Assembly (NCBI GenBank): GCA_963814585.1
Contig: CAWFDF010000016.1
Location: 1 to 64,000 of the forward strand
From: an uncultured delta proteobacterium
Lineage (GTDB): Bacteria; Myxococcota; Myxococcia; Myxococcales; Anaeromyxobacteraceae
Direction: 5' to 3'
DNA: 64,000 nucleotides
Shown here: one piece after another, positions 8,763 through 31,868 of the stretch
Numbering within the stretch: the stretch's first letter is position 1
Layout: the number at the start of each line of letters is the position of its first letter
Translations under genes and position numbers: made by a program
The notes under the pieces: model-generated
What the model saw: only the letters and a program-made list of their open reading frames with translations
The model's database searches: none
Told to the model about the DNA's origin: nothing

Positions 8763-8806
8763 GGTATCAGCGCGGCGGGACGCCCGGGCCGCCAGGCCCG
8801 ACCCGA

Positions 8807-11832: not shown

Positions 11833-11839
11833 CGGCCCG

Positions 11840-11848
11840 AGTGTAGCA
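11840..11848 (-). promoter_or_regulatory. Possible extended -10 element (TGcTACACT), 7 nt before the GTG start, suggesting a leaderless mRNA
   Basis: Reverse strand reads GATGCTACACT-CGGGCCG-GTG. Confidence 0.35.
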
Positions 11849-11978
11849 TCGGCACCGTGACCCGGGCGTCGGGCGACCTGGGCGCACGCCGCGGTGGCGC
11901 AGGCGGCGCGGTGGTGGTATCTGGGTCGACCGTCCGCGCCGGCCCTTCACACACTCGCTGACGCGTCGCGCCGCTCAC

Positions 11979-14253: not shown

Positions 14254-15843
14254 ATGATCCTGACAGTCCTGAGCCTGGTGCTCGCCCTCACGCCCCCCGA
14301 CGCCGTGGTCGCCCGTGTGAACGGCGAGGCCATCACGGCGGCGGTCGTCAGCGACCCGGGCCACCAGCACCCGCACCAGTCCCCAGGTGGCGGCCGACGA
14401 CCTGATCGCCGAGGTGCTCCTCGGCGCCGAGGGGGCGAAGCTGGGCGTGAAGGCGCCGGCGACGGCGGCCCCGGCCATCGACCTGGCCCGCCGGAACGCC
14501 GCCGTCGAGCGGTACCTCCAGGTCGTGGTCTACCCGGGCGTGCAGGTCCCCGAGGCCGACCTCCGCGAGCGCTTCCACCAGCGCGGCGACCAGGTCCGGC
14601 TGCTCCTGGTGGCCCGCCCCGACGAGGCGCAGGCCAGGGCCACCCTGGCGCGGATCGCCGCGGGCGCCAGCTTCGCGGACGAGGCCGCCACCTCGGTGGA
14701 CCCGACCTCCAAGGCGAAGAAGGGAGACCTCGGCTGGCTGCCGCGCTCGGCGCTCTCCGCGGCCCTGGCCAAGGAGGCCTTCGTCGCGCCGATCGGCAAG
14801 GTGCAGGGCCCGGTCCTCGCCGAGGGCGCCTGGAGCGTCTACCTGGTGCAGGACCGGCGCCTGCCGGACGAGGCGGCCTACGCCCTGGTGAAGGACCGGC
14901 TCCGCGCCGACCTCGAGCCCCAGGCTCGCTCCGCCGCCGCGGAGAAGCACCGGGCGAAGCTCGTCGCCGACCTCAAGGGCCGCGTGGACCAGAAGGCCTC
15001 GCCGCCACCGGTGACGGGCTCCAGGCCACGCCCGAGCAGTCCGCCAAGGTGGTGGCCAGCGCCGGCAGCGTCACCGTCACCTACGGCCAGGTGCTCAAGG
15101 AGCTGGGGGGCGGCCACGGCGGCGCCGGAGGATCCGGTCGCGCCTCGCCCGAGGTGAAGGCCACGCTCGCCCAGGACCTGCTCGGGCGGGCCGTGCTGGA
15201 GCAGGCCGCCATGAAGCGCTTCTCGAGGGACCCCGCGGTCCAGGCGGTTGCCGCCAGGGCCGAGCGCGCCGCCGTCGCCGCCGCCTACGCCGAGAAGCTG
15301 CGCCGCGAGGCCCCCGGGCCCAGCACGGCCGAGGTGGAGGGACGCTACGAGGCCCGCAAGCGCGACTTCATGACCCCCGGTGGGCGGCGCTGCTTCCAGC
15401 TGGTCGCGCCGACCGAGGCCGCCGTGAAGAAGCTGGCGGCCCGGGTCGCCGCCGGCGAGGACTTCGAGAAGGTGGCCGCCGACAGCTCGGATGGCCGGAG
15501 CGCCGCCAAGGGCGGCGAGGTCGGCTTCATCACCGACGACGAGATCGCGCGGGTCGAGCGGCCGGAGGGCGAGCCGGCGCTGGCCGCCGCGGTGGTGGGC
15601 ACCCCGGCCGGGCAGCTGAGCAAGCCCGTCAAGACCGCCGTTGGCTACCGGGTGGTGCGCTGCGAGCCCTACGTCCCGGCCAAGGGGGCCACGCTGGACG
15701 AGGTGCGCCACCGGATCACCATGGAGCTGAAGGGCGAACGCTCCGTCGCGGCGGTCCGGCAGAGGGCCGCGGCGCTGCGGGAGAAGGCCAGCGTCCAGGT
15801 CGAGGAGGCCGCGCTCGCCGCCATGCTCCCTCCCAAGAAGTGA
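14254..15843 (+). CDS. Parvulin/PpiC-type peptidyl-prolyl isomerase chaperone (two domains); frameshifted
   Basis: Signal peptide, VVARVNGEAIT, GASFADEA...S.DP.SK.K.GDLGW, second GEDFEKVAA..S....AKGGEVGF, SKPVKTAVGY. Confidence 0.8.
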   Translation: MILTVLSLVLALTPPDAVVARVNGEAITAAVVSDPGHQHPHQSPGGGRRPDRRGAPRRRGGEAGREGAGDGGPGHRPGPPERRRRAVPPGRGLPGRAGPRGRPPRALPPARRPGPAAPGGPPRRGAGQGHPGADRRGRQLRGRGRHLGGPDLQGEEGRPRLAAALGALRGPGQGGLRRADRQGAGPGPRRGRLERLPGAGPAPAGRGGLRPGEGPAPRRPRAPGSLRRRGEAPGEARRRPQGPRGPEGLAATGDGLQATPEQSAKVVASAGSVTVTYGQVLKELGGGHGGAGGSGRASPEVKATLAQDLLGRAVLEQAAMKRFSRDPAVQAVAARAERAAVAAAYAEKLRREAPGPSTAEVEGRYEARKRDFMTPGGRRCFQLVAPTEAAVKKLAARVAAGEDFEKVAADSSDGRSAAKGGEVGFITDDEIARVERPEGEPALAAAVVGTPAGQLSKPVKTAVGYRVVRCEPYVPAKGATLDEVRHRITMELKGERSVAAVRQRAAALREKASVQVEEAALAAMLPPKK

Positions 15844-15846
15844 TGC

Positions 15847-15882
15847 TGGGTGATTTCGCCCATGGTTGGGGGATTTACCGCT
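15847..15882. promoter_or_regulatory. Putative enhancer (bEBP-binding) sites TGGG-N8-CCCA, one full and one partial copy 20 bp apart
   Basis: TGGGTGATTTCGCCCA matches the reverse complement of 20355-20370 at 13/16 positions. Confidence 0.55.
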
Positions 15883-15933
15883 ATCCTCACCGTTGCCGGC
15901 CGGCCAACCACCTGATAGGGCTGGCCATGTCGG

Positions 15934-15949
15934 TGGCACCACGAATGCT
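15934..15949 (+). promoter_or_regulatory. sigma54 (-24/-12) promoter
   Basis: TGGCACCACGAATGCT with canonical GG-N10-GC spacing, upstream of the giant cytochrome gene. Confidence 0.7.
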
Positions 15950-16094
15950 GTGAAGCGAACGGCTCCATCCTTCTCCGACCCCGCCGGCGGCTCTCCCCCC
16001 CGGGAGCCGCGCCCGCGGCCGCGAGCACCAGGACCCGAGGAACGAATGCTCGACCGCTCTCCATCGATCGCTCCACGCTGGCCCGAAGCCCGGC

Positions 16095-19000
16095 GTGCGC
16101 GGACCCCACGGCGCCACGCTCCTCCCGCTGGCAATCCTCGCCGCGGCCGCGCTGGCCATGGGCGGGTGCTCCACGGGCGCCGGTGCCCGCGGCGGCAGCG
16201 CCGGCGGGAGCGGGCGGAAGGTCGCCGCCAAGGAGTGCGTGGCCTGCCACGCGGCGACGCTGAAGCAGCAGGAGCGGAAGCTCACCCACAAGCCCTTCGC
16301 GGACGCCAAGGGGTGCGAGTCCTGCCACCGCCGCCACGGCATCGTCGGCGTCAACGTGCTCCAGAAGGAGGAGCCGGAGCTCTGCTTCGGCTGCCACGAG
16401 AAGCAGAAGAAGGAGTTCGGGCAGGGCGTGGTGCACGAGGCCATCCGGGGTACCGGCAAGGCCAAGTGCACCTCGTGCCACGCGGCCCACTCCTCCGACC
16501 TGCCGAACCTGATGCGGGTCTCCACCAACGAGGCCTGCGCCACCTGTCACAAGAAGGCGCAGCTGCAGGGGGCCAGGGTCCACGCGCCCGCCGCCAAGGA
16601 CTGCGGGACCTGCCACATCCCGCACGCCAGCCCCCAGAAGCAGCTCCTGGTGAAGGAGGAGAAGGCGCTCTGCGGCGGCTGCCACGAGGCGGGCGACGCC
16701 AGGATGAAGAAGGCGCACGGCGGCCTCCCGGTCTCCGGCGCCAGCTGCGTCCAGTGCCACTCCCCGCACTCCGCCGCCGCCGCCGGCGGTCTGCACCCGA
16801 GCGTCCACGCGGTCGGGTCGGACTGCGCCGAGTGCCACGCGGCCGGCTCGGACAAGGCCAAGCCCTTCGCCGTCAAGAAGGCGGCGCCGGAGCTCTGCTT
16901 CGGCTGCCACGACACCCAGCAGGCCGACCTCAAGAAGAAGGTGGTCCACCCGCCTGCCGAGGGCTGCACCGACTGTCACTCGCCCCACGCCGCCAAGGGG
17001 CCCAAGCTCCTCGTCCAGGGCGTCCGCGAGACCTGCGCCGGGTGCCACGAGCCATCGCCGCGAAGCTGGCGACCAGGCCCCACGCGCCGGCCCGCGACGG
17101 GAAGTGCGCCGCCTGCCACGCGCCGCACGGCTCGGACAACAAGCGGCTCCTCGTCGCCACCGGCCCGGCGCTCTGCACCGGCTGCCACACGGCAGCCGCC
17201 GAGTGGCTCAAGGCCAAGGTGGTCCACGCCCCGGCGCGCTCCGGCGACTGCGGCGGTTGCCACGACCCGCACGGCTCGCCCAACGCCAAGCTGCTGGTCA
17301 AGGGGGCTGGCGAGCTCTGCTACGGCTGCCACCAGAAGCAGAAGGAGGCCTTCACCGGCGACAACGTCCACCGCCCGGTCCGCGAGGGCCAGTGCGCCGC
17401 ATGCCACCAGCCGCACGGCTCGGCGCAGGCCAAGCTCCTCAACGTCCCGGCGGCGCGGCTCTGCGACACCTGCCACGCCTTCGACAAGCGCTACGAGAAG
17501 ACCAAGCTCCACGCCCCGCTCGCCAGCGGCGGCTGCGCCGCCTGCCACGACCCCCACGTGGCCGGGCAGCCCAAGCTCCTCAAGTCCCCGGTCGCCAGCC
17601 TCTGCGCCGGGTGCCACGAGAAGGTGCCCAAGGCGCTCGACGCCAAGGGGGTCGTCTCCTCGCACCGGCCGGTCCGCAACGGCGAGTGCACCGCCTGCCA
17701 CGAGCCGCACGGCTCGAAGGACAAGGCCTTCCTCAAGAAGGGGCAGCTCGAGGTCTGCGGCGACTGCCACGGCGAGCTGGTGAAGCGGCTGGCGCGCCGG
17801 GACGCCCCCAGCCACGCCCCGGCCCGGGACGGCGACTGCGGTGCCTGCCACGCCGGTCACGCCTCGGCCCAGCCCTCGCTGCTGCTGAAGGCCGGGAAGC
17901 AGCTCTGCCTCGAGTGCCACGACGCCAAGGACGCGGCGCTGGTCAAGACCCACTCCGGCTACGACATCGACGGGAGCTCCTGCCTCGGCTGCCACGATCC
18001 CCACTACGGCGACCGGAAGGGGCTGATCCGCCGCGTCGGCCACTCGCCCTTCGTCAACCGGGACTGTGGCTCCTGCCACGTCGAGCCCAAGCCCGGCGGC
18101 AGCGAGCCGAAGACCGTGGCCTCCGGCCGCGCGCTCTGCGAGGTCTGCCACGGCGACACCCGCACCAGCTTCGCCAAGAAGTTCGTCCACACCGCCGTGA
18201 AGCAGGAGCGCTGCGGTGCCTGCCACGCCCCGCACGCCTCCTCCTCCGACAAGCTCCTCTCCAGGACCGGCGGGGCCCTCTGCTACACCTGCCACGACCC
18301 CAAGGCCTTCCAGAAGAAGGAGATGCACGCCCCGGTCAAGGCCGGGGAGTGCCTCAAGTGCCACGATCCGCACGCCTCCGACGCCAAGGGCGTGCTGGTC
18401 AGGACCGGCAACGAGCTCTGCCTGGGCTGCCACGCCGAGCAGAAGCGCGAGCTGGCGTCGAAGCACGTCCACGCCGCCGTCACCGGCGGGGCCTGCACCG
18501 ACTGCCACGACCCGCACGGCTCTCCGTACCCGGCCATGCTGGTCTCGTCGCGCGAGAAGCTCTGCCTCAAGTGCCACGACACCAAGGCCCCGGCCATCCA
18601 GGCGGCGCACCAGCGCTTCCCCCTGGCCGGGGTGGACTGCGCCTCCTGCCACAACCCGCACGGCTCCAGCCAGGCCGGGCTGATCCGCTCCAACAAGCAC
18701 CAGGTGTTCGGCGCCTGCGCCCGCTGCCACGCCACCACCGGCGCCAAGCCCCAGGCGCTCCTGGCCCAGAGCCCCGCGCTCTGCTTCCGCTGCCACGGCG
18801 ACAAGAAGACCGAGGTCTCCGCCAAGACCGGCGTGCACGCCGCCGCCCAGGGCGACTGCACCGACTGCCACACGCCCCACGCCTCCAACGAGAAGGGGCT
18901 GGTCAAGGGCAACAAGGAGCGGGCCGTCTGCCTCGGCTGCCACGATGGGATCAAGGGCGACCTGGAGCGGTCCAGGTCGATCCACCCGGTCAAGGCCGCC

Positions 19001-19318
19001 GGCGGCCGCTGCACCGCCTGCCACCGCCCCCACTCCTCGAGCCAGGTCCGCCTGCTCAGCCAGCCCGCCGGCGAGCTCTGCCAGACCTGCCACAAGACGC
19101 ACGCCCAGTTCACCCACCCCATCGGCAAGGGCGTGACCGACCCGAACACCGGCAAGGACATGAACTGCCTCTCCTGCCACGGTCCCCACGGGACCGGCCA
19201 GGATCACATCCTGCTCGGCAACCCGGCCCGCGGGCTCTGCATCCGCTGCCACGACGCCGACTCCGAGGACATGAAGGGGATGCGCAAGCCGAAGCCCGCA
19301 GGGCCCGCGGGAGGCTAG
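16095..19318 (+). CDS. Giant multiheme c-type cytochrome lipoprotein, about 42 CxxCH motifs (paired-CxxCH repeats), about 1070 aa; 1-nt deletion near 17051
   Basis: Lipobox AMGGC; 12 CxxCH in frame 16095 and 30 in frame 15866 after the frameshift (counted by hand). Confidence 0.88.
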
Positions 19319-19320
19319 GC

Positions 19321-20307
19321 GTGCGGCTCGGCGCGGTCGGCTCCGTCGGCCTCCTCCTGGCGGCGCTGGCGGCGCCCGGCCGCGCCAGCGACCTGGAGGC
19401 CGGCTCGCCGCTGGCGGTGGAGGAGCTGGCCCCGGTCGCCATCACCTACGGCCACTTCTACGAGGGCGCCTTCCAGGGGCCGACCGGGGTGACCTGCGAC
19501 GCCCGCAGCGGCGAGATGTACGTGGCCGACGCGGGCCGCGGGCTGATCGGCATCTTCGATCGGAAGGGCGCCCCGCTCTTCACCTTCGGCGACCCCGGCC
19601 GGCTCCGGGTCCCGGTCAAGGCCGTGGTCGATGGCCAGGGCCGGATCGTCGTCCTCGACTCCGCCGACCGGCGGCGGCTGCGGCTCTACAGCTACCGCGG
19701 CGAGTTCCGCACCTTCCTGGCGCTGGAGGGGCTGGACGCCAAGCCCAACCTCGCCATCACGGCCATCGCCGTCGACGCCCTGGGGAACCTGCTGGTCGGC
19801 GACTCGGGCCACGGCGAGGTGCTGGTGTTCGACCCGAAGGGGCGGCTCCTGTTCCGCTTCGGCAACAAGGGCAAGGGTCCGAACGAGTTCGACTCGATCA
19901 TGGGGATCGCCGCCACCGCCGACCGGATCTTCGTCTCGGACAGCGCCGGGATCGGCGTCCAGGTCTTCGACCGGCGCGGCCGCTACCTGCGGGGCTGGGG
20001 GCGCCACGAGGCCGGGCGGGAGAACGTCTCCTTCCCGCACGGCATCAGCGTGGACGGGAAGGGCCGGATCGCGCTGGTGGACTCGCTGCGCCACGAGATC
20101 AAGCTCTACGCGCCGGACGGCAAGATGATCGGCCAGTACGGCGGCGCCGGCCAGCGCCCGGGCGAGGTCCTCTACCCGGCCGACGCCTCCTTCGACGGCG
20201 AGGGCCGGCTCTGCCTGGCGGACCGCGGCAACGACCGCGTGCAGGTCCTCCAGCCGCGCGAGCCGCCGCCGCCCAGGCCGGAGCCGGAACCGAAGCCGGC
20301 GCCGTGA
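19321..20307 (+). CDS. Secreted NHL-repeat beta-propeller protein (OscD-like)
   Basis: Signal peptide; repeats P.GV..D..G.MYVAD, FG.KG.GP.EF..I.GIA, FPHGISVD, YPAD..FD..G.L.LAD.GN.RVQV. Confidence 0.88.
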   Translation: MRLGAVGSVGLLLAALAAPGRASDLEAGSPLAVEELAPVAITYGHFYEGAFQGPTGVTCDARSGEMYVADAGRGLIGIFDRKGAPLFTFGDPGRLRVPVKAVVDGQGRIVVLDSADRRRLRLYSYRGEFRTFLALEGLDAKPNLAITAIAVDALGNLLVGDSGHGEVLVFDPKGRLLFRFGNKGKGPNEFDSIMGIAATADRIFVSDSAGIGVQVFDRRGRYLRGWGRHEAGRENVSFPHGISVDGKGRIALVDSLRHEIKLYAPDGKMIGQYGGAGQRPGEVLYPADASFDGEGRLCLADRGNDRVQVLQPREPPPPRPEPEPKPAP

Positions 20308-20354
20308 TCCACGGCGGGCCCCTGGATCGGGGCGCCTCAAGTCAATTTTCCTGC

Positions 20355-20423
20355 TGGGCCAAAACACCCGGTGCTGGGGCACAAGACCCGCCCGGTGGCC
20401 AGCCCGGTGGGCCAAAGCACCCG
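20355..20423. promoter_or_regulatory. Three putative enhancer sites TGGG-N8-CCCG
   Basis: 20355 TGGGCCAAAACACCCG, 20375 TGGGGCACAAGACCCG, 20408 TGGGCCAAAGCACCCG, about 70-140 bp upstream of a sigma54 promoter. Confidence 0.6.
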
Positions 20424-20494
20424 AAGCCCTGCCGGTGTGCGGATCTGTCGTCGGATTTCTCCAGCGATTCCAGGTGGGTCCGGGTCGGTCCGGT

Positions 20495-20510
20495 TGGCAC
20501 TCCCGATGCT
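20495..20510 (+). promoter_or_regulatory. sigma54 (-24/-12) promoter
   Basis: TGGCACTCCCGATGCT with canonical spacing, 130 nt upstream of the OmcS-like gene. Confidence 0.72.
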
Positions 20511-20641
20511 AAGGACCCACATCACGAACTCACCAGATGGTCGACGTGGACCGGCGGAGCTCGCCGGGCAGCAAGCAGGCAGGGGAAGTCCGTCGCAGCC
20601 AATCGCGCAGTGAACCAGACGCCAACCGGAGTCCAACCACC

Positions 20642-21769
20642 ATGAAGAAGCTCACCTTCATCGCCCTCGCCGCCTTCGCCAGCACGGCGCTCGCCGGCGA
20701 GTTCCACACCTACACCACCCTGGTGTGCAGCGACTGCCACACCATGCACGCCAGCCGGACCCACAGCTTCGGGACCGACGCCCTCAACGCCAACGACACC
20801 GTCGTCTTCGGCGGCGGCGACACCGGCGGCCACGAGGCCCTCCTGCTCGGCGCCGACGTCAACAAGACCTGCCTGACCTGCCACGACGGCGCGCGCGGCC
20901 CGGACGTCTACGGCCTGAACGCCGGCCTCTTCTCCCCGAACAGCCGCTCCGCCGGCGCCCTGAACTCCGCCACCGGGTACATGGCCCAGCAGGACGGCTA
21001 CATGCCGTACATGGGCCACTCGCTCGGCTCGACCGCGATGCCCCCCGGCTACATCGCCGCCAACTGGAGCGCCACCTCCCAGTACCCGGCCGACCTGCAG
21101 TGCGTCCGCTGCCACACGGCCCACGGCCGCGGCACCTTCCGCAACCTGCGCGACCGCGGCTCCGACGCCGCCGTCCGCGAGCCCAGCTACGTGGTCCTGC
21201 CCGCCGGCCAGCTGACCCTCAACTACGGCTACGACGTCAACATGTTCGGCAACGACTACAGCTCCGACAGCATCTTCTACACGTCGGCGACCGGCTCGAC
21301 GCTCGGCCTGAACAAGATGACCGCCTTCTGCGGCATGTGCCACGGCAACTACCACGACGACGCCGTCGGCGGCGTCGCCCCGGACGACTACTTCAAGCGT
21401 CACCCGACCGACCAGGTCACCCTCACCCCGCGCCAGCTCTTCACGGCCGAGGCTGTCGAGGCCACCAACGTGTCGGTCAAGCTGACCTACATCTCGGGTG
21501 CGGGCGTCACCCGCGGCGCCGAGGCCGGCACCATCAACTTCCAGGCTGATCCCACCGCGACGGCGACCGTCGGCTGCCTCACCTGCCACAAGGCCCACGG
21601 CAACCTGAACTCCTTCGGCCTGTTCTTCCCCGGCAACTCGGTCGGCCCGACGGGCACCGAGGTCCACATCGACGGCAACCACGAGCAGGGCCCGGGCAAC
21701 TCGATCCGGAACCTCTGCAACACCTGCCACGGCCAGGGCCGCACGCCCGTGACGATCGTCATCCCGTAA
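20642..21769 (+). CDS. omcS: OmcS-family hexaheme c-type cytochrome (putative nanowire subunit)
   Basis: Sec signal then FH..., CSDCHTMH, CLTCH, GH, YPADLQCVRCHTAHG, MTAFCGMCHGNYH, RHP, VGCLTCHKAHG, RNLCNTCH; same order and flanks as G. sulfurreducens OmcS as recalled; orthology not proven. Confidence 0.75.
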   Translation: MKKLTFIALAAFASTALAGEFHTYTTLVCSDCHTMHASRTHSFGTDALNANDTVVFGGGDTGGHEALLLGADVNKTCLTCHDGARGPDVYGLNAGLFSPNSRSAGALNSATGYMAQQDGYMPYMGHSLGSTAMPPGYIAANWSATSQYPADLQCVRCHTAHGRGTFRNLRDRGSDAAVREPSYVVLPAGQLTLNYGYDVNMFGNDYSSDSIFYTSATGSTLGLNKMTAFCGMCHGNYHDDAVGGVAPDDYFKRHPTDQVTLTPRQLFTAEAVEATNVSVKLTYISGAGVTRGAEAGTINFQADPTATATVGCLTCHKAHGNLNSFGLFFPGNSVGPTGTEVHIDGNHEQGPGNSIRNLCNTCHGQGRTPVTIVIP

Positions 21770-21785
21770 CCAGCTGAGCAGCCCG

Positions 21786-21815
21786 GCGTGGGGAGGGCGA
21801 GAGCCCTCCCCACGC
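21786..21815 (+). terminator. Perfect 13-bp GC hairpin (terminator or mRNA stabiliser) after the OmcS-like gene
   Basis: GCGTGGGGAGGGC-GAGA-GCCCTCCCCACGC, GNRA loop, weak U tail. Confidence 0.65.
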
Positions 21816-21843
21816 TGCATTTCGTGGCATACTGCGAGGCGAC

Positions 21844-22770
21844 GTGTCGAAAGGGACGCCCATCAGGCCCGGAAGAGCGCACACCGCGGGCTGGCCGCAC
21901 GCCGCGCTGCTGCTCATGGCGCCGCTCCTCCTCGGGGGCTCCTGGCACACCTACAATCGGCTCGTCTGCAGCGACTGCCACACCATGCACAACAGCGCCG
22001 CCGGCCAGGCGATGCGCTACGACCTCGACGACACCCCGGTCCAGTACCTGCTCCGCAGCGCCAGCCCCGACACGCTCTGCCTGCACTGCCACGGCTCGAT
22101 GCCGGCGCAGGGCGCCCCCGGGGTCACGCTGCAGGAGGGCGCGGTGCCCCCCTTCGACTCGGCCGCCGGGTTCTTCACCACCGCCGCCAGCGGGGGCCAG
22201 CCGGTCACCGGGCTGGGCCACGTCGTCGGCGTGGCGCCGACCCAGGACCCGGCCGAGTACTTCTCCAGCGCGGCCATGACGCTCGGCTGCCTGAGCTGCC
22301 ACGACCAGCACGGCAACGCCCTCTACCGGAACCTCCGCCCCGGCCCCTCGGGGCGCGGGGGCAGCGCCTCGCCGCTGGTCACCGAGCGGGTGCTGGCCGG
22401 CCAGGGCGCGGCGAGCACGGTCTACGGCGCCGCCAACATCCGCTACCAGTCGGGCTTCACCGAGTGGTGCCTCGACTGCCACGACCAGTACAGCCACTAC
22501 CACGTGGACGTCACCTTCGAGGCCCGCCCCGACCTCTTCTCCTACTACGCCGCCAACGCCCTCTCGGCCACGGGGACGCCGCTGCCGCGGCCGCGCGTCC
22601 AGACGCCCCTGGTCGAGGCCGTGCCGGATCCGACCAACCAGCTCTTCTGCCTCTCCTGCCACAAGGCCCACGGCAGCGGAGCCCCCCGTGGCGTGGTCTA
22701 CCCCGACCCCGCCGACACCAGCTCGCTGTGCGCCCGCTGCCATGTGCCGCCGGCGGCGGTGGCGCCATGA
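21844..22770 (+). CDS. Second, compact OmcS-family hexaheme cytochrome (start uncertain)
   Basis: WHTYNRLVCSDCHTMHNS, CLHCH, GH, CLSCHDQHG, FTEWCLDCH, CLSCHKAHGS, LCARCH. Confidence 0.75.
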   Translation: MSKGTPIRPGRAHTAGWPHAALLLMAPLLLGGSWHTYNRLVCSDCHTMHNSAAGQAMRYDLDDTPVQYLLRSASPDTLCLHCHGSMPAQGAPGVTLQEGAVPPFDSAAGFFTTAASGGQPVTGLGHVVGVAPTQDPAEYFSSAAMTLGCLSCHDQHGNALYRNLRPGPSGRGGSASPLVTERVLAGQGAASTVYGAANIRYQSGFTEWCLDCHDQYSHYHVDVTFEARPDLFSYYAANALSATGTPLPRPRVQTPLVEAVPDPTNQLFCLSCHKAHGSGAPRGVVYPDPADTSSLCARCHVPPAAVAP

Positions 22771-24212
22771 GCCGGGTCCTGCCCGGCACGCGCCGCCTGC
22801 TCCGCGGCCTCTCGGCCGCAGCCCTGCTGGCGGCGCTGCCGCTCGTCGCGACGGCCGGCCCCGAGGCCTTCCGCACCTCCCGCCACGCCGACCCGGTGAG
22901 CGGCCCGTTCCGCGATCGCAAGTACCGGCCCGGGACCTGCCTGCAGTGCCACGGCAGCGGCGGCGCCTCGACGATGGGACCGTCCAACCGGATGGCGCTC
23001 TTCGCCGCCAACGACGACCAGCTCTGCCTGACCTGCCACCGGTCGGCCCGCGGCTCCTTCCCCGATCCCTCGCTGGTGACCCGCTCGACGCACAGCCAGT
23101 CGCCGCAGGTGGTCTGGCCCGGGCCGGTGCCCAGGGCTCGCCCGCGGGGAGACGGGGGGCGCTGCCTCAACTGCCACGACCCGCACGGCCGGGTCGATGC
23201 GCTCGGCCCCATCCCGGACATGCTGGTGGCCCGCGGCGACGACCTGTGCCTCGCCTGCCACGGCGCAGGTGGGGGCGGCCCCGACATCGCGTCCGAGCTG
23301 AACGAGATCAGCCGGCACCCGCGCGCCACCGGCGGGCCCGTGAAGGGCGGCGCCTTGCCGGGGACGGTCTGCCTGGACTGCCACAACCCGCACCTGGCGC
23401 GGCGCGAGGCCACCGGCGCCCTGGGCGGGGCCTCGGGCCTGGTGGACGGCGTCCGCCGGGTCAGGCTGATCAACGGCGCGGCCGGCTCCCTCCCCCGGCT
23501 CATCCCGGTGGGGCCGGAGGACCGCTCCCCGACCCCGGAGTACGAGGTCTGCTTCCGCTGCCACGCCGGCGCGGCGGGCGACTCGGCCACCGTGCTGGCG
23601 GCGCCGGCGGGGGTCGCGCTGGCCCCACCGTCCGGTGCCGGGGCGGTCCCGGCGGCGGGCGCCATCGCCGCGGTGGCGCGCGGCCAGGTCGCCTCGGACT
23701 TCAACCCGGCCAACGCCTCCTACCACCCGGTCGAGGCCCCGGGGCGGGACGGCGCCATCGACCCGGCCGCGTTCGCCGGCGGCTGGCGGGCCGGGCGGAT
23801 GATCAGCTGCAGCGACTGCCATGGCTCCGGCAATGGCCGGGTCCGGGGGCCGCACGGCTCCAGCTTCCCGAAGCTGCTGAAGAGGCGGTACCCGGTCGCG
23901 GCCCAGGGCGCCCAGCAGGAGCCGTCCGACCTCTGCTTCGACTGCCATGCCTGGAGCGCCTACGCGGCCGCCGGCGCCGGGCTGGCCGCCACCTCGAGCC
24001 GGTACGCCGGCCACACCTCGCACGCCGGCCAGGGCCTCACCTGCCAGGCCTGCCACGAGCCCCACGGGAGCCCGAAGCTCCCCTCGCTCCTCGCGCTCCG
24101 CACGCCGGGCCTGGTCGCCTACCAGCGCGACGCCTCGGGCGGCACCTGCACCGTGAGCTGCCACGCCAAGACCCCGCCCGCGGCCAGCTACCGGCTGGCC
24201 TACCCCCGGTAA
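22767..24212 (+). CDS. Multiheme c-type cytochrome (9 CxxCH plus 1 CxxxCH)
   Basis: Signal peptide; CLQCH, CLTCH, CLNCH, CLACH, CLDCH, CFRCH, CSDCH, CFDCH, CQACH, CTVSCH; FNP.NASYHPV motif. Confidence 0.88.
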   Translation: MSRVLPGTRRLLRGLSAAALLAALPLVATAGPEAFRTSRHADPVSGPFRDRKYRPGTCLQCHGSGGASTMGPSNRMALFAANDDQLCLTCHRSARGSFPDPSLVTRSTHSQSPQVVWPGPVPRARPRGDGGRCLNCHDPHGRVDALGPIPDMLVARGDDLCLACHGAGGGGPDIASELNEISRHPRATGGPVKGGALPGTVCLDCHNPHLARREATGALGGASGLVDGVRRVRLINGAAGSLPRLIPVGPEDRSPTPEYEVCFRCHAGAAGDSATVLAAPAGVALAPPSGAGAVPAAGAIAAVARGQVASDFNPANASYHPVEAPGRDGAIDPAAFAGGWRAGRMISCSDCHGSGNGRVRGPHGSSFPKLLKRRYPVAAQGAQQEPSDLCFDCHAWSAYAAAGAGLAATSSRYAGHTSHAGQGLTCQACHEPHGSPKLPSLLALRTPGLVAYQRDASGGTCTVSCHAKTPPAASYRLAYPR

Positions 24213-24227
24213 GCCAGCTCCGCCTCG

Positions 24228-26387
24228 ATGGAACCCCAGGCCCAACCCCGCGCCCGCGCTGCCCTGGTCGCCTGGCTGCTGGCGCTCGCCCCGGGCCTGG
24301 CCTCGGCGGCCGTGGAGGGACTGGGGGCCACCGCCACGCTCCAGCTCAACCGGTTCGAGACCGCCGACACCGCCTCCGACGCGGTGAACCAGCGCTACTA
24401 CCTGTTCTTCGAGAACCCGCTCTCGGGCCTGCTCAAGTACCGGGCGAAGCTCGGCTACATCGAGGATCACGCCAACGTCTTCACCGAGGGGCCGCGCCTG
24501 GGACAGCGGGCCGTCCAGCCGGGGCTCCAGCTCGATTACGGGCGCGACTGGCTGTCGCTGAACGGTCTCTACGAGTACCAGTGGATCGAGCGGTTCTCCC
24601 AGGTCGCCGAGTCGGTGGCGGGCACGAACCACCGGGGCTCCACCACGCTGGGCATCCAGGCCACCGAGGCCCTCCGCTTCGCGGCCCGCTTCGAATGGCA
24701 CGGGCAGCGGGAGGCCAGCACCGACGTCCGGCTCGACCGCTACCGGGCCGACGCCAGTGGCACCTGGCAGCGCGGGGTCAACTCCGTCTCGCTCGGCCCG
24801 GTCCTCGACGTCTACAAGAACTCGGCCACCGGCTACCTGCGGACCACCATCTCCCCGACCGTCAAGGCGACCTACGGCGGCACCTGGCTCGGTGGGAGGC
24901 TCAACGTCAACCTGAACGGCGCCGCCGTCTACAGCCAGATCGACGAGTCGGCCGGCGGGGCCCTGCCGGTCAGCGAGCCGCGCGAGCTGGAGCCGCTCTC
25001 CGCGTATTACGTGGTGAGCAGCACGCCCGCCGACACCACCGCCACCCCCTCCACCTCGGTCCCGGCGCTGATCGACGGGAACTACGTCGCCAGCACCGGC
25101 ATCTCGCTCGGACCCGACGGCGTCTCGTCGCAGAACCTGGCGTTCGACATGGGCCGGGTGATCACCCTCGACGAGTTCCGGGTCTACCTCCGCGACCCCG
25201 CCGGCAACCCGCTCCAGGAGGGCGGCCCGGTGACCTGGACGGCCTACACCAGCCTGGACGGGCTGCGGTGGACACCCACCAGCTCGGCCGGGTCCAGGTT
25301 CGACCTGGGGCTGAGCGCCTGGGTCATCGCCTTCACGCCGACCGAGGCGCGCCACTTCAAGGTGGTCAACTTCGGCGTCAGCCGGCTCCCCACCCTGGTG
25401 ACCGAGATGGAGATCTACGAGCACCGGACCATCCTGCCCAACGAGACCCGGACCTCCTGGACCGCCACCCAGGTGGTGGGCGGAGGCGTGACGCTGCAGA
25501 TCACGGAGAAGCTCACGGCCACGGTGACCGGCACCCTGGGGGCCAACCAGCAGCGGCCGGCGGGGCGGGCCCCGTACGACTCCATCACCGACAACTACCT
25601 GGTCGGCCTGAGCGCCGGCCCCTGGGCCGGCTTCACCTTCTCGGGCTCCTACGCCCACAACGACTTCACGAGGACCCTCTCCCCCACGCTCCGCGGGGAC
25701 CTCGGATCGCTGGGGGTGGGCTTCGTGCCGAACGAGCTCGTGTCCACCGGGCTGACGGCCTCGGCCCAGCGGCAGGATTACGGCGACTTCCGGCTCGAGT
25801 CGCAGGGGCTGTCGCTCACCGCCGGCCTGAACCCCATCAGGAAGCTGAACATCGGCGCCTATGCCGCGGTGAACTGGTCGGTCAACTACCCGTACGGGCT
25901 GGAGCAGACCGTCATGTCGGCCGGCGGCAGCGCCGTCATCCTCATGCACCGGACCTTCGACGTCACGCTGGCCGCCACGGCGCAGAAGATCCTGTCGGGA
26001 GAGGCGGACCTGATCCCGGAAGGGGTCCCCATCGTGCCGCCGGCCATCCAGCGCAGCTACTCGGCGACGCTCCGCTACCACCCGAACTCCCAGCTCGATC
26101 TGAGCGCCCAGTTCGGGTATACGGAGACCGGGGCGGCTGACGGCCCGGTCCAGAACTACCGGGTGAACTGGCTCCCGTTCCCGAACGGCGCCTTCAGCCT
26201 CATCCTCAACTACCAGCAGAACGTCGAGCCCATCTCCGGCTCGAGCCTGAGCCGGCTCTCCGTCATCCCGGGGTGGAGCATCAGCAAGCATCTCTCGCTC
26301 ACCGCCTCGGTCTTCCGCCAGTGGGGGTCGGGCCCATTCGCCGTCCCGCTCGAGACCTACTACCTGGCGCTGACCTTCTACCTATGA
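24228..26387 (+). CDS. Outer-membrane beta-barrel protein with an inserted discoidin/F5-8-like beta-sandwich
   Basis: Signal peptide, amphipathic strands, C-terminal aromatic (TFYL); central insert LIDGN...LAFDMG...YTSLDG..W...ARHFKV...VTEME. Confidence 0.7.
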   Translation: MEPQAQPRARAALVAWLLALAPGLASAAVEGLGATATLQLNRFETADTASDAVNQRYYLFFENPLSGLLKYRAKLGYIEDHANVFTEGPRLGQRAVQPGLQLDYGRDWLSLNGLYEYQWIERFSQVAESVAGTNHRGSTTLGIQATEALRFAARFEWHGQREASTDVRLDRYRADASGTWQRGVNSVSLGPVLDVYKNSATGYLRTTISPTVKATYGGTWLGGRLNVNLNGAAVYSQIDESAGGALPVSEPRELEPLSAYYVVSSTPADTTATPSTSVPALIDGNYVASTGISLGPDGVSSQNLAFDMGRVITLDEFRVYLRDPAGNPLQEGGPVTWTAYTSLDGLRWTPTSSAGSRFDLGLSAWVIAFTPTEARHFKVVNFGVSRLPTLVTEMEIYEHRTILPNETRTSWTATQVVGGGVTLQITEKLTATVTGTLGANQQRPAGRAPYDSITDNYLVGLSAGPWAGFTFSGSYAHNDFTRTLSPTLRGDLGSLGVGFVPNELVSTGLTASAQRQDYGDFRLESQGLSLTAGLNPIRKLNIGAYAAVNWSVNYPYGLEQTVMSAGGSAVILMHRTFDVTLAATAQKILSGEADLIPEGVPIVPPAIQRSYSATLRYHPNSQLDLSAQFGYTETGAADGPVQNYRVNWLPFPNGAFSLILNYQQNVEPISGSSLSRLSVIPGWSISKHLSLTASVFRQWGSGPFAVPLETYYLALTFYL

Positions 26388-26968
26388 GCCCCACCGCGCA
26401 GCGACGTTCTCGACTCCCCGGCGGACGGGCCGGCTGGCCGCTCCTGCTGGCGCTGGCCCTGGGGTGCGCGGCGCCGGGCCCGTACGTCAGCGACCGCGCC
26501 GACTTCTCGCTGATCCGGTCGGTCGCCATCCTGCCCTTCGACGACGCCTCGGGGGAGAAGCTCGGGGCGGAGCGGATCCAGCGGATCTTCATGACCGAGC
26601 TGCTGGCCCTCGGGGTCTTCGACCCGGTCGAGCCCGGGCAGGTGGTCCGGGCGGTCCGCACCGAGCGGATCGACCCCGCCACCTTCACCCCGGACGACAT
26701 CAAGAAGCTGGGGAAGCTGCTCGGCGTCCAGGGCGTCTTCGTCGGCTCGATCATCGAGTACTCCGAGGGGAAGTCCGCCTCGCAGTCGGCGCAGGTGACG
26801 CTGCAGATCCGGCTGCTCGACGTGGAGTCTGGCAAGACGGTCTGGTCCACCAGCCGGAGCGGGACCGGCGCGACGGTGACCGGACGGCTCTTCGGGATGG
26901 GGTCGCTCACCGCCTCCGAGGTCGCGCGGCAGCTGATCCGCGAGGAGCTCGAGCGCCTCGTCCGGTGA
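26384..26968 (+). CDS. CsgG/GNA1162-like lipoprotein
   Basis: Lipobox ALGC; VAILPF, LGKLLGVQGVFVGSI.EY, IRLLDVESGKTVWS. Confidence 0.75.
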   Translation: MSPTAQRRSRLPGGRAGWPLLLALALGCAAPGPYVSDRADFSLIRSVAILPFDDASGEKLGAERIQRIFMTELLALGVFDPVEPGQVVRAVRTERIDPATFTPDDIKKLGKLLGVQGVFVGSIIEYSEGKSASQSAQVTLQIRLLDVESGKTVWSTSRSGTGATVTGRLFGMGSLTASEVARQLIREELERLVR

Positions 26969-26971
26969 ACC

Positions 26972-28036
26972 ATGAGCCTCCGGGCGGCCGTCGCACTCCT
27001 GCTCCTCGCCATGCCCCCGGCCGTCCCGGCCGCCGAGGGGCGGCTGGTGCTGCTCCCGTTCGACGGCCAGGTCGGCCCCGCCTTCCGCCTGGCGGTGGCG
27101 CAGACCGTCATGGTCGCCCTGGCCCGGCGGGGGTACACGGTGGTGGGCGGCGAGGTGGCGGAGCGCTTCCTGGAGGAGCGCCGCATCCGCTACCTCGACT
27201 CCCTGACCGAGGCCGACGTCCGCGCGCTCAGCGGGGAGTTCCACGCCGACGGCGTGGTGCTGGGGGCCTTCATCGCCCTCCCCGACGAGCAGTCGCCGGA
27301 GGCCGCCCTCTCCGCCCGGCTGATCCGGGCGGACGGACGGATGGCGTGGACCGCCACCTCCGGCCTGTCGTCGCGGGGCGAGCAGCTCCGCCCCTACACC
27401 GAGGGTGGCGCCAGGGCCACCCTGCGCCCGGTCGAGCAGCTCACCGCGGTCGCCAGGCAGCTGTTCCAGGGGTTCCCCGAGAACGGCGCGCCCCTGCCCG
27501 TCCGGGTCGCCGGCTACACGGTCGGCTCGTCCCCCAGGACCTACCGGGCGCCCGGCTTCTTCCGGGAGCGCCGGCGCGTCTGCCTGCTCCCGTTCTCCAA
27601 CGTCACGGCCACGCAGGCCGCCCCCCGCGCCGTGGAGGCGATCTTCGCCCGGGCGCTCGGGGAGCGGAACCAGTTCCAGGTGGTGGAGCCGGCCGAGCTG
27701 CGCCGCGCCTTCGTGGAGGAGGGGATCTGGAGCCCGCGCTGGCTCACCCTGGACCACTACCGCCGGCTCAGCGCCCGGGTCGGCGGCTGCGCCTTCCTGA
27801 GCGGGGACATCCTGACCTACGGTAATGTGAGCGACTCCGTGGGCGGGAGCACGCCCGCCGTGGAGATCTACGTCAGCCTGGTGGAGCCGCCGGCCGGCCG
27901 GGTGGTCTGGTCGGCGCTGCACGTGCGGCGAGGCCAGGAGTACGAGCACCTGCTCGGCCTGGGCGTGCTCCAGAGCCGGTTCGAGGTGGGCGAGCAGGTG
28001 GTGCAGGAGCTGGTCAGGGGGCTCTACGCCCCGTGA
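26972..28036 (+). CDS. Secreted protein with two CsgG/TolB-N-like domains
   Basis: Two LLPF repeats, ADGVVLG, ARLI..DG...W, LVEP..GRVVWS. Confidence 0.65.
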   Translation: MSLRAAVALLLLAMPPAVPAAEGRLVLLPFDGQVGPAFRLAVAQTVMVALARRGYTVVGGEVAERFLEERRIRYLDSLTEADVRALSGEFHADGVVLGAFIALPDEQSPEAALSARLIRADGRMAWTATSGLSSRGEQLRPYTEGGARATLRPVEQLTAVARQLFQGFPENGAPLPVRVAGYTVGSSPRTYRAPGFFRERRRVCLLPFSNVTATQAAPRAVEAIFARALGERNQFQVVEPAELRRAFVEEGIWSPRWLTLDHYRRLSARVGGCAFLSGDILTYGNVSDSVGGSTPAVEIYVSLVEPPAGRVVWSALHVRRGQEYEHLLGLGVLQSRFEVGEQVVQELVRGLYAP

Positions 28037-28064
28037 AAAGGTCGTGAGACCGAAGGGAAGGCAC

Positions 28065-29915
28065 ATGAAGAAGCTGCTCCTCATCGCCGCGACGGCCGGG
28101 CTCTGCTCCGGCTGCGCCGCGCCGCGCTACCTCGCCAAGGTCAACGGCGAGGAGATCACCGGCACCGACATGCGCCGCGAGTTCGGCCGGCGCCACCGGT
28201 CGATGGAGAAGTACCTGGCGACCGAGGCCGAGGTGCGCAGGGTGCTGGACTCGGTCATCGACCGGCGGCTCTTCCTCCAGGAGGCCCGCCGCGCCGGCCT
28301 CCAGGACGATCCGGCCGTGCGCGAGGCCATCAACGGCGAGCGCGAACGCCGGCTCGTCGAGACGCTGGTCCGGCGCGAGGTCGAGCTGCCGGCCGAGCCG
28401 ACCGAGGCGGAAGTGGCAGCGGCCTACAAGCTGATGGAGCAGGGAGGGCTGGCGCGCGAGGTGGTCACGGCCACCCGGATCGAGGCCGAGGAGGTGCGGA
28501 CCCGGGCGCTGGCCGGCGACGACTTCGAGGCGCTGGCGCGCGAGCGCTCCATCGCCCGGAGCCGGCTCAACGGCGGGCTGCTGGTGCTCCGCTTCGGCGA
28601 CGCCGAGGTGGCGCGAGAGGAGGCCGGGCGCGCCCTGCGGGAAGGGGACATCTCCCCGGTCATCGAGCTGCGGCAGGGCTTTGCGGTCCTCAAGCTGGAG
28701 GAGCGCAAGCTCATCGTCCCGCCGGACCTGCCGGTGGTGAAGGAGAAGCTCTCGGCCATCCTCAAGCGCCGAAAGGTGGAGGTGCTGGACCGGGAGTTCA
28801 TCGCCGCCATGCGGGCCAAGTACGCCGCCCAGGTGGCGCCCTGCGACTTCTCGCTGGCCTCGCTGGAGAAGGCGCGCGCCACGCCGGTCGAGACCGTCTG
28901 CGCCACCTGGACCGGCGGCTCCTACACGCTGTCCGGGCTGGCGGCCAGGCTGCCGCTGGACCGGCTCCGCGCCGCCCCGCCCGAGCGGTACGACGCCGAG
29001 GTGGAGATGAGGGTCGGCGACGTGGTGGCGGAGCGGCTGCTCCTGGCGGAGGCGATGGCCCGCGGCCTCGACAAGGATCCCGAGGTGGTGGAGCCGGTCC
29101 AGTCGCTCGAGGAGAAGCTCCTGGTCGAGCTCTACCTGGAGCGGTACGTCACGCTCGAGGTGACGGTCAGCGACGCCGAGGTGGAGGCCGGCTACCTGGC
29201 GCAGAAGGCCGAGCTGATCGTCCCCGAGTCGCGCCTCCTCTCGCAGATCGAGGTGGCCAGCGCCGAGACGGCGGCCGCCGCGCAGCGGCGGCTCGGGGAG
29301 GGGGAGCGGTTCGAGGAGGTCGCCAGTGAGCTCACCACCAACGTCGAGCAGGCCAAGCGGGGTGGGCTGATCGGGTGGAAGACCAGGTCGGAGCTCACCG
29401 AGCCCTTCGCCGCGGTGTTCGAGGCGCGGCGAGGCGTGGTGGTCGGTCCGGTCGCGGCCGGGGGCCACTTCTACCTCGTCAAGGTCCTGGAGATCCGGCC
29501 GGAGACGCCGCTGGAGCGCAAGGAGGCGGAGGCCAAGGTCCGGGAGGCGCTGCTGACGGGCCGCCGCTTCGAGCGCTTCGAGCGCTTCCGCGAGCAGCTC
29601 CGGAAGGCCTCCGAGGTCGTGGTGAGCGACGCGGGCGTCCGGCGCTACCTGGAGGAGAACCCGGCCCCGGTGGTGAAGACACCTCCAGCGCCTACCGCCG
29701 GGACGGGTGGTCATGCCGGCATGGGCTCGATGCCCGGCGACATGCCGGCGGGCGGCATCCCCGGGGGGATGCCTGGTGGGCACGGTGGGCCAGGTGGCCA
29801 CGGCGGTCCTCCACCGGGCGCGAAGGCGCCCACGCCGGGCGCCACGCCGCCGGCTGCGACGTCGCCAGGTGCTGCGCCGCCGGGCCCGGCGACGCCCAGG
29901 CCAAGCACGCCCTGA
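28065..29915 (+). CDS. PPIase chaperone lipoprotein (two parvulin domains; OscH-like) with a Gly/Met/His/Pro-rich tail
   Basis: Lipobox CSGC; LAKVNGEEIT, GDDFEALARERS, GERFEEVA.ELT...GGLIGW, GPV...HFYLVKV. Confidence 0.85.
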   Translation: MKKLLLIAATAGLCSGCAAPRYLAKVNGEEITGTDMRREFGRRHRSMEKYLATEAEVRRVLDSVIDRRLFLQEARRAGLQDDPAVREAINGERERRLVETLVRREVELPAEPTEAEVAAAYKLMEQGGLAREVVTATRIEAEEVRTRALAGDDFEALARERSIARSRLNGGLLVLRFGDAEVAREEAGRALREGDISPVIELRQGFAVLKLEERKLIVPPDLPVVKEKLSAILKRRKVEVLDREFIAAMRAKYAAQVAPCDFSLASLEKARATPVETVCATWTGGSYTLSGLAARLPLDRLRAAPPERYDAEVEMRVGDVVAERLLLAEAMARGLDKDPEVVEPVQSLEEKLLVELYLERYVTLEVTVSDAEVEAGYLAQKAELIVPESRLLSQIEVASAETAAAAQRRLGEGERFEEVASELTTNVEQAKRGGLIGWKTRSELTEPFAAVFEARRGVVVGPVAAGGHFYLVKVLEIRPETPLERKEAEAKVREALLTGRRFERFERFREQLRKASEVVVSDAGVRRYLEENPAPVVKTPPAPTAGTGGHAGMGSMPGDMPAGGIPGGMPGGHGGPGGHGGPPPGAKAPTPGATPPAATSPGAAPPGPATPRPSTP

Positions 29916-31803: not shown

Positions 31804-31868
31804 TGCTGGCCCCGGCTCCTCTTCCGGGCTGAAGGGCGGCGACGCCTGGGCTATCCTCGCGCCCCGCC

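What the first reader, a model, noticed from the sequence alone, without database searches (positions are those of the whole stretch)
14254..29915. Complete cytochrome-nanowire locus (OmcS family plus osc-like assembly machinery) in a non-Geobacter-looking genome
Seen: co-oriented PPIase, roughly 42-heme cytochrome, NHL propeller, two hexaheme cytochromes, a 9-10-heme cytochrome, a beta-barrel, two CsgG-like proteins and a PPIase lipoprotein, the 3' genes overlapping or nearly abutting. Known: Geobacter OmcS nanowires depend on a companion (osc) cluster with an NHL protein, channel-like proteins and a PPIase chaperone. Inference: this locus secretes and polymerises a divergent cytochrome filament. 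The giant lipoprotein cytochrome and second PPIase are extras, and no ATPase is visible within the locus.
Basis: partly seen in the sequence, partly recalled or inferred. Interest (0 to 1): 0.85.

Follow-up and report, generated by a model that had tools for sequence, protein, structure and literature searches.

The report
Variant OmcS cytochrome nanowire gene cluster
A bacterium outside Geobacter carries a real, conserved but rearranged version of the known gene set for making conductive cytochrome filaments, in which two relay proteins are fused into one 42-heme protein and an extra ten-heme protein may cap one end of the filament.

Summary
The genes are real and conserved. Both hexahemes are OmcS-family (profile E 1e-21 and 4e-23; model Z 12.1; all twelve His positions kept). 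Barrel, two CsgG-like proteins, the PPIase lipoprotein, the NHL protein and the giant cytochrome each have a homolog in the reference osc cluster. The first hexaheme has its own sigma-54-like site, ribosomal-type codon bias (99.8th percentile) and the fastest change between alleles, so it is the likely major subunit. Frameshifts in the window are assembly errors. The same order recurs in relatives and metagenomes. Filaments, secretion and binding are inferred, not shown. This scan found osc-like loci, and a hexaheme-partner fusion, before on other DNA. Verdict: new variant of a known system.

The parts
11979..14189 (+). Fibronectin-III repeat protein with a lipobox-like signal; broken in the window, intact (711 aa) in C6; probably an accessory of this cluster type
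   Evidence: homologs beside the same cluster type in L255 and L064; partly missing in C1
14254..15843 (+). First PPIase (two PpiC/rotamase domains), variable extra; two single-base assembly indels
   Evidence: Pfam rotamase; indels near 14351 and 14998 absent in C6 and C1; orthologs at the same place in G292 (35%) and G373 (66%)
15934..15949 (+). Sigma-54-like -24/-12 site before the 42-heme gene
   Evidence: pattern chosen after seeing the site; kept in C6
16046..19318 (+). 42-heme cytochrome = OscI (hemes 1-26) fused to OscJ (hemes 27-42), lipobox-like signal peptide; two assembly indels
   Evidence: (OscI 37%, E 2e-120)
19321..20307 (+). NHL beta-propeller, homolog of the NHL gene upstream of omcS in the reference cluster; not OscD
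   Evidence: (E 1e-14)
20356..20423 (+). Three related 14-15 nt direct repeats upstream of the hexaheme 1 promoter; candidate activator sites
   Evidence: found only here and in the C1 and C6 copies; pattern written from the sites
20495..20510 (+). Sigma-54-like -24/-12 site before hexaheme 1
20642..21769 (+). Hexaheme 1 (375 aa), OmcS-family; likely major filament subunit
21844..22770 (+). Hexaheme 2 (308 aa from GTG), compact OmcS-family; likely minor or adaptor subunit
22767..24212 (+). Decaheme cytochrome (9 CxxCH + C-terminal CX3CH), no osc counterpart found; stands where OscD stands; candidate end cap or adaptor
24228..26387 (+). OscE-like predicted outer-membrane beta-barrel (719 aa) with an inserted F5/8-type (CBM32-like) domain
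   Evidence: (E 2.6e-9 over 184 aa)
26384..26968 (+). OscF-like CsgG/LpoB-type lipoprotein
   Evidence: (30%, E 1e-27)
26972..28036 (+). OscG-like two-domain CsgG-type protein
   Evidence: E 1e-10
28065..29915 (+). OscH-like SurA/PpiC PPIase lipoprotein
   Evidence: 22% over 535 aa, E 3e-15
29922..31803 (+). Membrane protein with C-terminal TPR repeats, often beside osc clusters; one assembly indel; a glycosyltransferase role is a recalled resemblance only

Best explanation
This is a divergent subtype of the OmcS/osc system that builds a surface cytochrome filament. Shown: gene identities, homologies, the OscI-OscJ fusion, the missing OscD ortholog, conserved order. Inferred mechanism: all proteins are exported to the periplasm and heme-loaded; the two PPIases chaperone the loop-rich hexahemes; the OscE-like barrel with the two CsgG-like proteins forms the outer-membrane exit and anchor; hexaheme 1, driven from its own sigma-54-type promoter, is made in excess and polymerises head to tail, each subunit giving the His three residues after its first heme motif to heme 5 of its neighbour, as in OmcS; hexaheme 2 and the decaheme are minor parts at the heme-6 end of the chain; the self-ligated 42-heme protein is a single-chain periplasmic relay that feeds electrons to the base. 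The cell would use it for electron exchange with minerals, humics or other cells.
For: OmcS is the top solved match for both hexahemes: profile E 1.4e-21 and 4.2e-23; hexaheme 1 model (pLDDT 74) Z 12.1, rmsd 4.7, 249 aligned, next hit Z 5.4. Twelve His columns are kept in 109-110 of 110 hexaheme 1 homologs and 112-121 of 121 hexaheme 2 homologs, with OmcS N-terminal spacing. OmcS takes one ligand from the neighbour (PMC6584659, PMC7096707, passages). Locus L253 (G115), whose hexaheme is identical to 6EF8, gives a homolog for 8 of the 10 window genes at E of 1e-8 or better. 18 of 18 26-heme proteins align best at heme 1 and 14 of 15 16-heme proteins at heme 27 of the C6 42-heme protein. Same ten-gene order, intact, in G373 and G292. 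Hexaheme 1: sigma-54-like site, codon score at the 99.8th percentile of 2297 frames against 18-91 for the other 12 segments, highest dN/dS of 14 segments (0.67). Hexaheme 2 is fused in frame to the decaheme in L029 and to a decaheme-like part in L039. The genome holds 55 open frames with 3 or more heme motifs (duplicated copies included) and cytochrome c assembly genes.
Against: No filament, location or binding was observed. Identity to OmcS is only about 24%; Foldseek gave E 2.4e-3 and TM 0.40. The hexahemes fall in a 55-row group apart from the 89-row group that holds OmcS, OmcT and OscC (rows seeded separately, midpoint root). [quoted passage not shown] OscD was not found (best 30 bits against 400-670 for full-length orthologs). 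The OscE match covers 184 of 719 residues and the barrel fold was not modelled. OmcS filaments were reported in Shewanella given omcS alone (bioRxiv 10.1101/2023.10.26.564108, abstract), and omcS deletion did not impair Fe(III) oxide reduction (PMC11077965, abstract). The window decaheme has 20 conserved His for 10 hemes, so it lacks the spare His that an anchor would need; 16 of 25 homologs have it. Strict sigma-54 pattern: only 3 of 26 hexaheme 1 upstream regions, two of them this genome's copies.
Confidence: 0.62

Rival explanations
1. A fixed porin-cytochrome conduit, not a long filament: the decaheme sits in the barrel as MtrA sits in MtrB, the 42-heme protein feeds it, and one or a few hexahemes form a short surface terminal.
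For: A ten-heme gene directly precedes a barrel of about 700 aa in 13 of 53 barrel loci with a classed upstream gene; the best structural match of the decaheme model is the Mtr complex chain 6r2q_A, Z 6.3, rmsd 4.3, 199 aligned; only OmcS itself is known to polymerise (PMC12977616, passages).
Against: That model has pLDDT 54.5 and Z under 8 is common; no MtrB family match in the genome; the barrel's homolog is OscE; hexaheme 1 looks made far in excess of the barrel and keeps the His used between subunits in 110 of 110 homologs.
Confidence: 0.2
2. Filaments are made by the osc-type route, but serve mainly as an electron store, adhesin or biofilm scaffold and not as the long-range respiratory conduit.
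For: PMC11077965 (abstract) finds no need for cytochrome filaments in Fe(III) oxide reduction; the cluster is patchy (decaheme in 12 of 92 family genomes, 0 of 12 others of the genus), lies among surface-glycan genes and its likely subunit changes fastest, as surface antigens do.
Against: A conserved 42-heme relay and a decaheme in the same cluster are a large cost that fits electron flow across the envelope.
Confidence: 0.13
3. A decaying or misassembled locus with no working product.
For: Five single-base frameshifts in the window; three copies in one assembly; C1 has 258 private gap columns and C6 has a break in the decaheme.
Against: Each window break is intact in both other copies; ribosomal L2 is split too; dN/dS below 1 in all 14 segments; intact orthologous clusters in G373 and G292.
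Confidence: 0.05

Closest known systems
omcS-companion (osc) cluster of Geobacter sulfurreducens, GSU2505-GSU2493 (Shen et al. 2025, Cell Chem Biol 32:239; not held, known here through passages of PMC13194489, PMC12977616 and PMC13712944)
   Same: OmcS-family hexahemes; barrel - OscF - OscG - OscH in the same order; NHL gene directly upstream of the first hexaheme; 26+16 heme relay. Names D to H are given here by gene order between oscC (GSU2501) and oscI (GSU2495).
   Different: OscI and OscJ fused, placed upstream and with a lipobox-like signal; no OscD or spermidine-synthase-domain gene found; a decaheme between hexahemes and barrel; a second PPIase; hexahemes shorter and about 24% identical to OmcS, in a separate branch.
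OmcS filament subunit (PDB 6EF8/6NEF)
   Same: Six CxxCH in order, twelve His, N-terminal H-x6-CxxCH-xx-H spacing, same fold.
   Different: Shorter loops (375 and about 290 aa against 432); hexaheme 1 family has two further commonly kept His (89 and 82 of 110); polymer not shown.
Canonical osc clusters in the same family (G019, G254, G256; named Anaeromyxobacter records L155, L158)
   Same: Same core barrel-F-G-H; OmcS homologs in Anaeromyxobacter dehalogenans are already in print (PMC10954620, passages).
   Different: They keep OscD and separate OscI and OscJ, and their best hexaheme is about 49% identical to OmcS; the window's OscF-like protein is only 31-33% identical to theirs.
MtrAB-type porin-cytochrome conduit (PDB 6R2Q)
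   Same: Decaheme gene next to a barrel gene of about 700 aa; weak structural likeness (Z 6.3).
   Different: No MtrB/PioB family match; the decaheme is 481 aa with its own motifs.
OmcE nanowire gene clusters (PMC13712944, passages)
   Same: Multiheme relays, propeller, barrel and a filament subunit, often followed by glycosylation, methyltransferase and TPR genes, as here.
   Different: Tetraheme subunit of another family; that paper finds no anchor or tip candidate inside omcE operons.

Membership tests
OmcS family | Six CxxCH motifs in a secreted protein with sequence homology to OmcS | tested here: met
OmcS family | Twelve His ligand positions, including the His three residues after the first motif (OmcS mature position 16; that this is the His given to the neighbour is recalled, the papers read say only that heme 5 gets a neighbour's His) | tested here: met
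   papers
OmcS family | OmcS fold | tested here: met
   hexaheme 1 model Z 12.1, rmsd 4.7, 249 aligned; Foldseek E 2.4e-3; hexaheme 2 not modelled
OmcS family | Orthology to OmcS itself and not to its paralogs | tested here: not met
   separate branch from OmcS/OmcT/OscC (FastTree, 144 rows); hexaheme 1 scores slightly better on OmcT and OscC than on OmcS
OmcS family | Polymerises into an extracellular conductive filament | not testable with these tools
osc cluster | OscE barrel, OscF and OscG channel-like proteins | tested here: met
   E 2.6e-9 (partial), 1e-27, 1e-10; Pfam CsgG/LpoB/GNA1162 hits on both sides
osc cluster | OscH PPIase chaperone | tested here: met
   (E 3e-15)
osc cluster | OscI (26 heme) and OscJ (16 heme) | tested here: met
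   present as one fused protein
osc cluster | NHL gene | tested here: met
osc cluster | OscD YNCE-type beta-propeller between hexaheme and barrel | tested here: not met
   absent from the locus in all three copies; not found in the genome by family, protein or a 37-sequence profile; genome 91.7% complete. OscD is also missing between hexaheme and barrel in 13 other loci
osc cluster | Gene between omcT and oscC (1035 aa, spermidine synthase domain; presumably oscB) | tested here: not met
   not found with this query; only 6 hits among 259 loci held, so it is not a general part
osc cluster | Criteria used by Shen et al. 2025 to call an osc cluster, and whether their survey holds this subtype | not testable with these tools
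   paper not held
MtrAB/PioAB porin-cytochrome conduit | MtrB/PioB family barrel | tested here: not met
   (the control rang only weakly, in 1 of 14 genomes)
MtrAB/PioAB porin-cytochrome conduit | MtrA-like decaheme fold | tested here: inconclusive
   low-confidence model, Z 6.3

The most novel reading that the evidence does not exclude
A pilus-like cytochrome heteropolymer with dedicated parts: many hexaheme 1 subunits, one hexaheme 2 adaptor and a terminal decaheme that caps the heme-6 end and takes the place of OscD, fed by a single lipid-anchored 42-heme rod long enough to cross the periplasm. It would supply, inside one operon, the anchor or tip protein that the nanowire literature lists as missing.
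Probability: 0.3. Interest if true: 0.75.

Novelty: new variant of a known kind. Interest (0 to 1): 0.42.

Why it matters
The system is published as widespread, and this scan has met osc-like loci before, so its presence outside Geobacter is no surprise. The value lies in the differences. How OmcS-type filaments are capped, anchored and charged is stated as open (PMC7096707, PMC12307469, PMC13712944, passages). This subtype gives testable candidates: a major subunit marked by promoter and codon bias, a minor subunit naturally fused to a decaheme in other genomes, and a natural OscI-OscJ fusion showing that these two act end to end. A filament structure of a subunit 24% identical to OmcS would also test how far the OmcS fold keeps polymerising.

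Tried and rejected
Shen et al. 2025 and Wang et al. 2019 were not held; their supplements may already list this subtype. Eight literature searches ran; none listed a description of a 42-heme OscI-OscJ fusion or a decaheme in an osc cluster, which holds for that library and those terms only. Idea that the 42-heme protein ends in an unligated heme that takes the first hexaheme's His: rejected, its His budget closes in blocks of 9+17+9+7. Idea that OscD and the decaheme exclude each other: rejected as a rule, both occur in L008/L009, L015/L016, L018/L019, L037/L038 and L051. Idea that hexaheme 1 is hypervariable across three copies (68-78%): the C1 figure is mostly indel error (95% at DNA level); only the C6 comparison was used, one pair, no significance test, and high GC3 inflates the ratios. 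Single-sequence PDB searches with hexaheme 1, barrel and decaheme found nothing; profiles were needed. ESM Atlas gave unnamed clusters for the barrel (named beta-barrel clusters only at 0.76-0.77) and generic multiheme clusters for the decaheme. No sigma-70 promoter; terminators at chance level. Sequencing runs: no RNA holder listed; six DNA runs with shares of 0.05-0.10; four were laid and gave only short pieces, with none of the listed indel rows at the gene frameshift sites, so they were not used. The downstream membrane-TPR gene got TPR hits only, no glycosyltransferase family. A maximum-likelihood tree did not finish; FastTree was used, on 144 of 167 distinct hexahemes after near-duplicates were dropped.
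Full report
Observation. The ten genes are present and co-oriented. Family scans give rotamase domains for the first and last gene, paired-CXXCH repeats for the giant cytochrome, NHL repeats, CsgG/LpoB-like domains and an F5/8-type insert in the 719-aa protein; no ATPase family appeared in the 15 pieces scanned. There are 63 CxxCH motifs in the cytochrome genes and 4 in all other frames of the window. Five single-base indels break the first PPIase, the giant gene and the downstream TPR gene. The assembly holds two more colinear copies with the same flanks, on 22-24 kb contigs C1 (93.6%) and C6 (90.9%). The five indels are missing from both, and both read 42 hemes in one frame. Ribosomal L2 is split in the same way. 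Other small contigs overlap large ones likewise, so I read C1 and C6 as co-binned strain haplotypes; true paralogs are not excluded.

Organism. Unnamed. Canonical clusters from its family group with named Anaeromyxobacter records, so Anaeromyxobacteraceae (Myxococcota) is inferred. The genome is 91.7% complete, with 55 open frames of 3 or more heme motifs, duplicates included.

The hexahemes. Hexaheme 1 alone finds nothing in the PDB; hexaheme 2 finds OmcS at 6e-9. Profiles of 110 and 121 homologs put OmcS first at 1.4e-21 and 4.2e-23. The hexaheme 1 model (pLDDT 74) matches OmcS at Z 12.1, rmsd 4.7, 249 residues, next hit 5.4; Foldseek is weaker (E 2.4e-3, TM 0.40). Twelve His columns are kept in each family, with the spacing of the OmcS N-terminus. 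OmcS has 12 His ligands, one from the neighbour at heme 5 (PMC6584659 and PMC7096707, passages); that the donor is the His three residues after motif 1 is recalled. Both hexahemes lie in a 55-row branch (support 99) apart from the 89-row group with OmcS, OmcT and OscC (FastTree, rows seeded by two different searches, midpoint root). They are family members, not OmcS orthologs. PMC12977616 (passages) warns that only OmcS among its paralogs is known to form a wire.

Comparison with the reference cluster. Shen et al. 2025 was not held. PMC13194489 (passages) gives oscC = GSU2501, oscI = GSU2495, oscJ = GSU2494 and the proposed roles: OscH folding, OscE/F/G secretion, OscD morphology. PMC12977616 gives the eight-gene block GSU2500-GSU2493 and 26 hemes for GSU2495. 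Locus L253 of G115 carries a hexaheme identical to 6EF8; I named its genes D to H by order. Against it: barrel-OscE E 2.6e-9 over 184 aa, first CsgG-like-OscF 1e-27, second-OscG 1e-10, PPIase lipoprotein-OscH 3e-15, giant-OscI 2e-120, NHL-upstream NHL 1e-14, hexahemes 1e-8 to 5e-13. The first PPIase is only weakly related (5e-4), and the decaheme matches only through generic heme repeats.

The giant cytochrome is a fusion. Canonical loci have a 26-heme gene followed by a 16-heme gene. In a register scan, 18 of 18 distinct 26-heme proteins aligned best at heme 1 of the C6 protein and 14 of 15 16-heme proteins at heme 27; in seven other 42-heme proteins the figures were 18 of 18 and 7-14 of 15. 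Ten distinct 42-heme proteins besides this genome's were seen; a lipobox-like signal is present in some and absent in others. The His budget closes within the chain. At about 8 A per heme (recalled from OmcS and MtrA) a straight chain would be about 33 nm, more than a periplasm; linearity was not modelled.

OscD is missing and a decaheme stands in its place. OscD is a YNCE-type propeller. Family, protein and profile searches found no ortholog in the genome. The 9-10-heme gene has nine CxxCH and a C-terminal CX3CH kept in 21 of 25 homologs, with ten conserved distal His. Among 53 barrel loci with a classed gene upstream, that gene was OscD in 27, a hexaheme in 13 and the decaheme in 13; 12 of those 13 read hexaheme 2 - decaheme - barrel with no OscD (some loci are near-duplicates, and kin are not independent). 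Five other locus groups hold both OscD and a decaheme homolog. In L029 hexaheme 2 runs into the decaheme in one frame with no linker; L039, its sister in the tree, is similar. This places the decaheme at the heme-6 end of hexaheme 2. A spare His after the first motif, which could ligate hexaheme 2 heme 5, is present in 16 of 25 homologs, L029 among them, but absent in the window protein, which counts against a strict anchor role here. The decaheme model was poor (pLDDT 54.5) and its best match, MtrA at Z 6.3, is weak.

Division of labour. Two sigma-54-like sites are the only matches of the pattern in 64 kb (expected 0.09), one before the 42-heme gene and one before hexaheme 1; I chose the pattern after seeing them. 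The strict pattern occurs upstream of 3 of 26 hexaheme 1 genes (two from this genome), 0 of 15 hexaheme 2 genes and 11 of 93 other OmcS-like genes (0.48 expected); a looser one finds sites about 100 nt before hexaheme 1 in L263, L264 and L074. Three repeats upstream are kept in all copies. Hexaheme 1 scores at the 99.8th percentile for ribosomal-type codon use in both C16 and C6; the other 12 segments score 18-91. Between C16 and C6 it has the lowest identity (77.8%) and the highest dN/dS (0.67; barrel 0.54, 42-heme 0.18) (one pair, ranking only). This is the pattern expected of an abundant surface subunit.

Distribution. The same ten-gene order is intact in G373 (followed by the TPR gene) and G292, and the order from the 42-heme gene to the OscH-like gene in metagenome loci L031/L032 and L047. 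The decaheme rings in 12 of 92 family genomes, this one included, and 0 of 12 others of the genus. OscF-like genes ring in 21 of 201 phylum genomes, 18 of 27 in the family; the three weak-scoring ones that I opened are canonical clusters. Source names of hexaheme homologs include Deltaproteobacteria, Armatimonadota, Thermoanaerobaculia, Nitrospinota and Anaeromyxobacter. The locus sits among surface-glycan genes, as many omcE clusters do (PMC13712944, passages).

Mechanism and rivals. Best reading (0.62): an osc-type route exports and anchors a hexaheme 1 filament with hexaheme 2 and the decaheme at one end, charged by the 42-heme relay. Rivals: a fixed porin-cytochrome conduit (0.20), a filament with a mainly structural or storage role (0.13; PMC11077965, abstract), a dead locus (0.05). 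OmcS filaments in Shewanella given omcS alone (bioRxiv 10.1101/2023.10.26.564108, abstract and opening text) weaken the need for the companions. Which end faces the cell is unknown.

Verdict. A real, conserved, new variant of a published system. OmcS homologs in Anaeromyxobacter are in print (PMC10954620, passages), and this scan has noted osc-like loci in other genomes. Interest 0.42; 0.75 if the cap model holds (probability 0.3).

Noticed in passing
G000 C1, C6 against C16:9939-35037: Three colinear versions of the whole region (87-94% DNA identity) in one assembly, probably strain haplotypes; C1 lacks about 1.27 kb (window 11799-13067) and about 0.75 kb near window 33650-34400.
   Followed up: partly
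window 37074-45677: ArsR-rhodanese regulator, YeeE/YedE-type transporter and a DMSO-reductase-family type II enzyme whose alpha subunit is in two genes (40572-42200, 42197-43438), with an Fe-S subunit and a heme b subunit region joined to a cytochrome c domain. Whether the split is real or an assembly break was not checked.
   Followed up: no
window 47066-52548: SCO1, COX2 with cytochrome c, COX3 and COX4 domains: a caa3-type oxidase operon.
   Followed up: no
window 1-11950 and 29922-35256: Surface-glycan island around the cluster: methyltransferase, DegT aminotransferase, GT1/GT2/GT4 genes upstream; membrane-TPR and LIC_10190-family membrane proteins downstream. Filament glycosylation is possible, untested.
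   Followed up: partly
G000 C14:170279-179632, C14:232125-235967, C8:540103-544566: Other very large multiheme frames with 58, 29 and 28 CxxCH motifs.
   Followed up: no
alignment A2 columns 39, 228, 259: Three extra His that come and go largely together in decaheme homologs (16, 17, 17 of 25) and are all absent in the window protein; a possible extra metal or ligand site.
   Followed up: partly
L117-L121: A Nitrospirota-labelled contig with six tandem OmcS-type genes.
   Followed up: no
L028:1994-4138: A 715-aa, 12-heme protein whose first half is hexaheme 2-like and whose second half is another multiheme module.
   Followed up: partly
L224 (G023) and L057: Rearranged versions of the subtype: in G023 the 42-heme/NHL/hexaheme 1 block points away from the hexaheme 2/decaheme/barrel block; in L057 hexaheme 1 precedes the 42-heme gene. 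Hexaheme 2 stays with the decaheme in both.
   Followed up: partly
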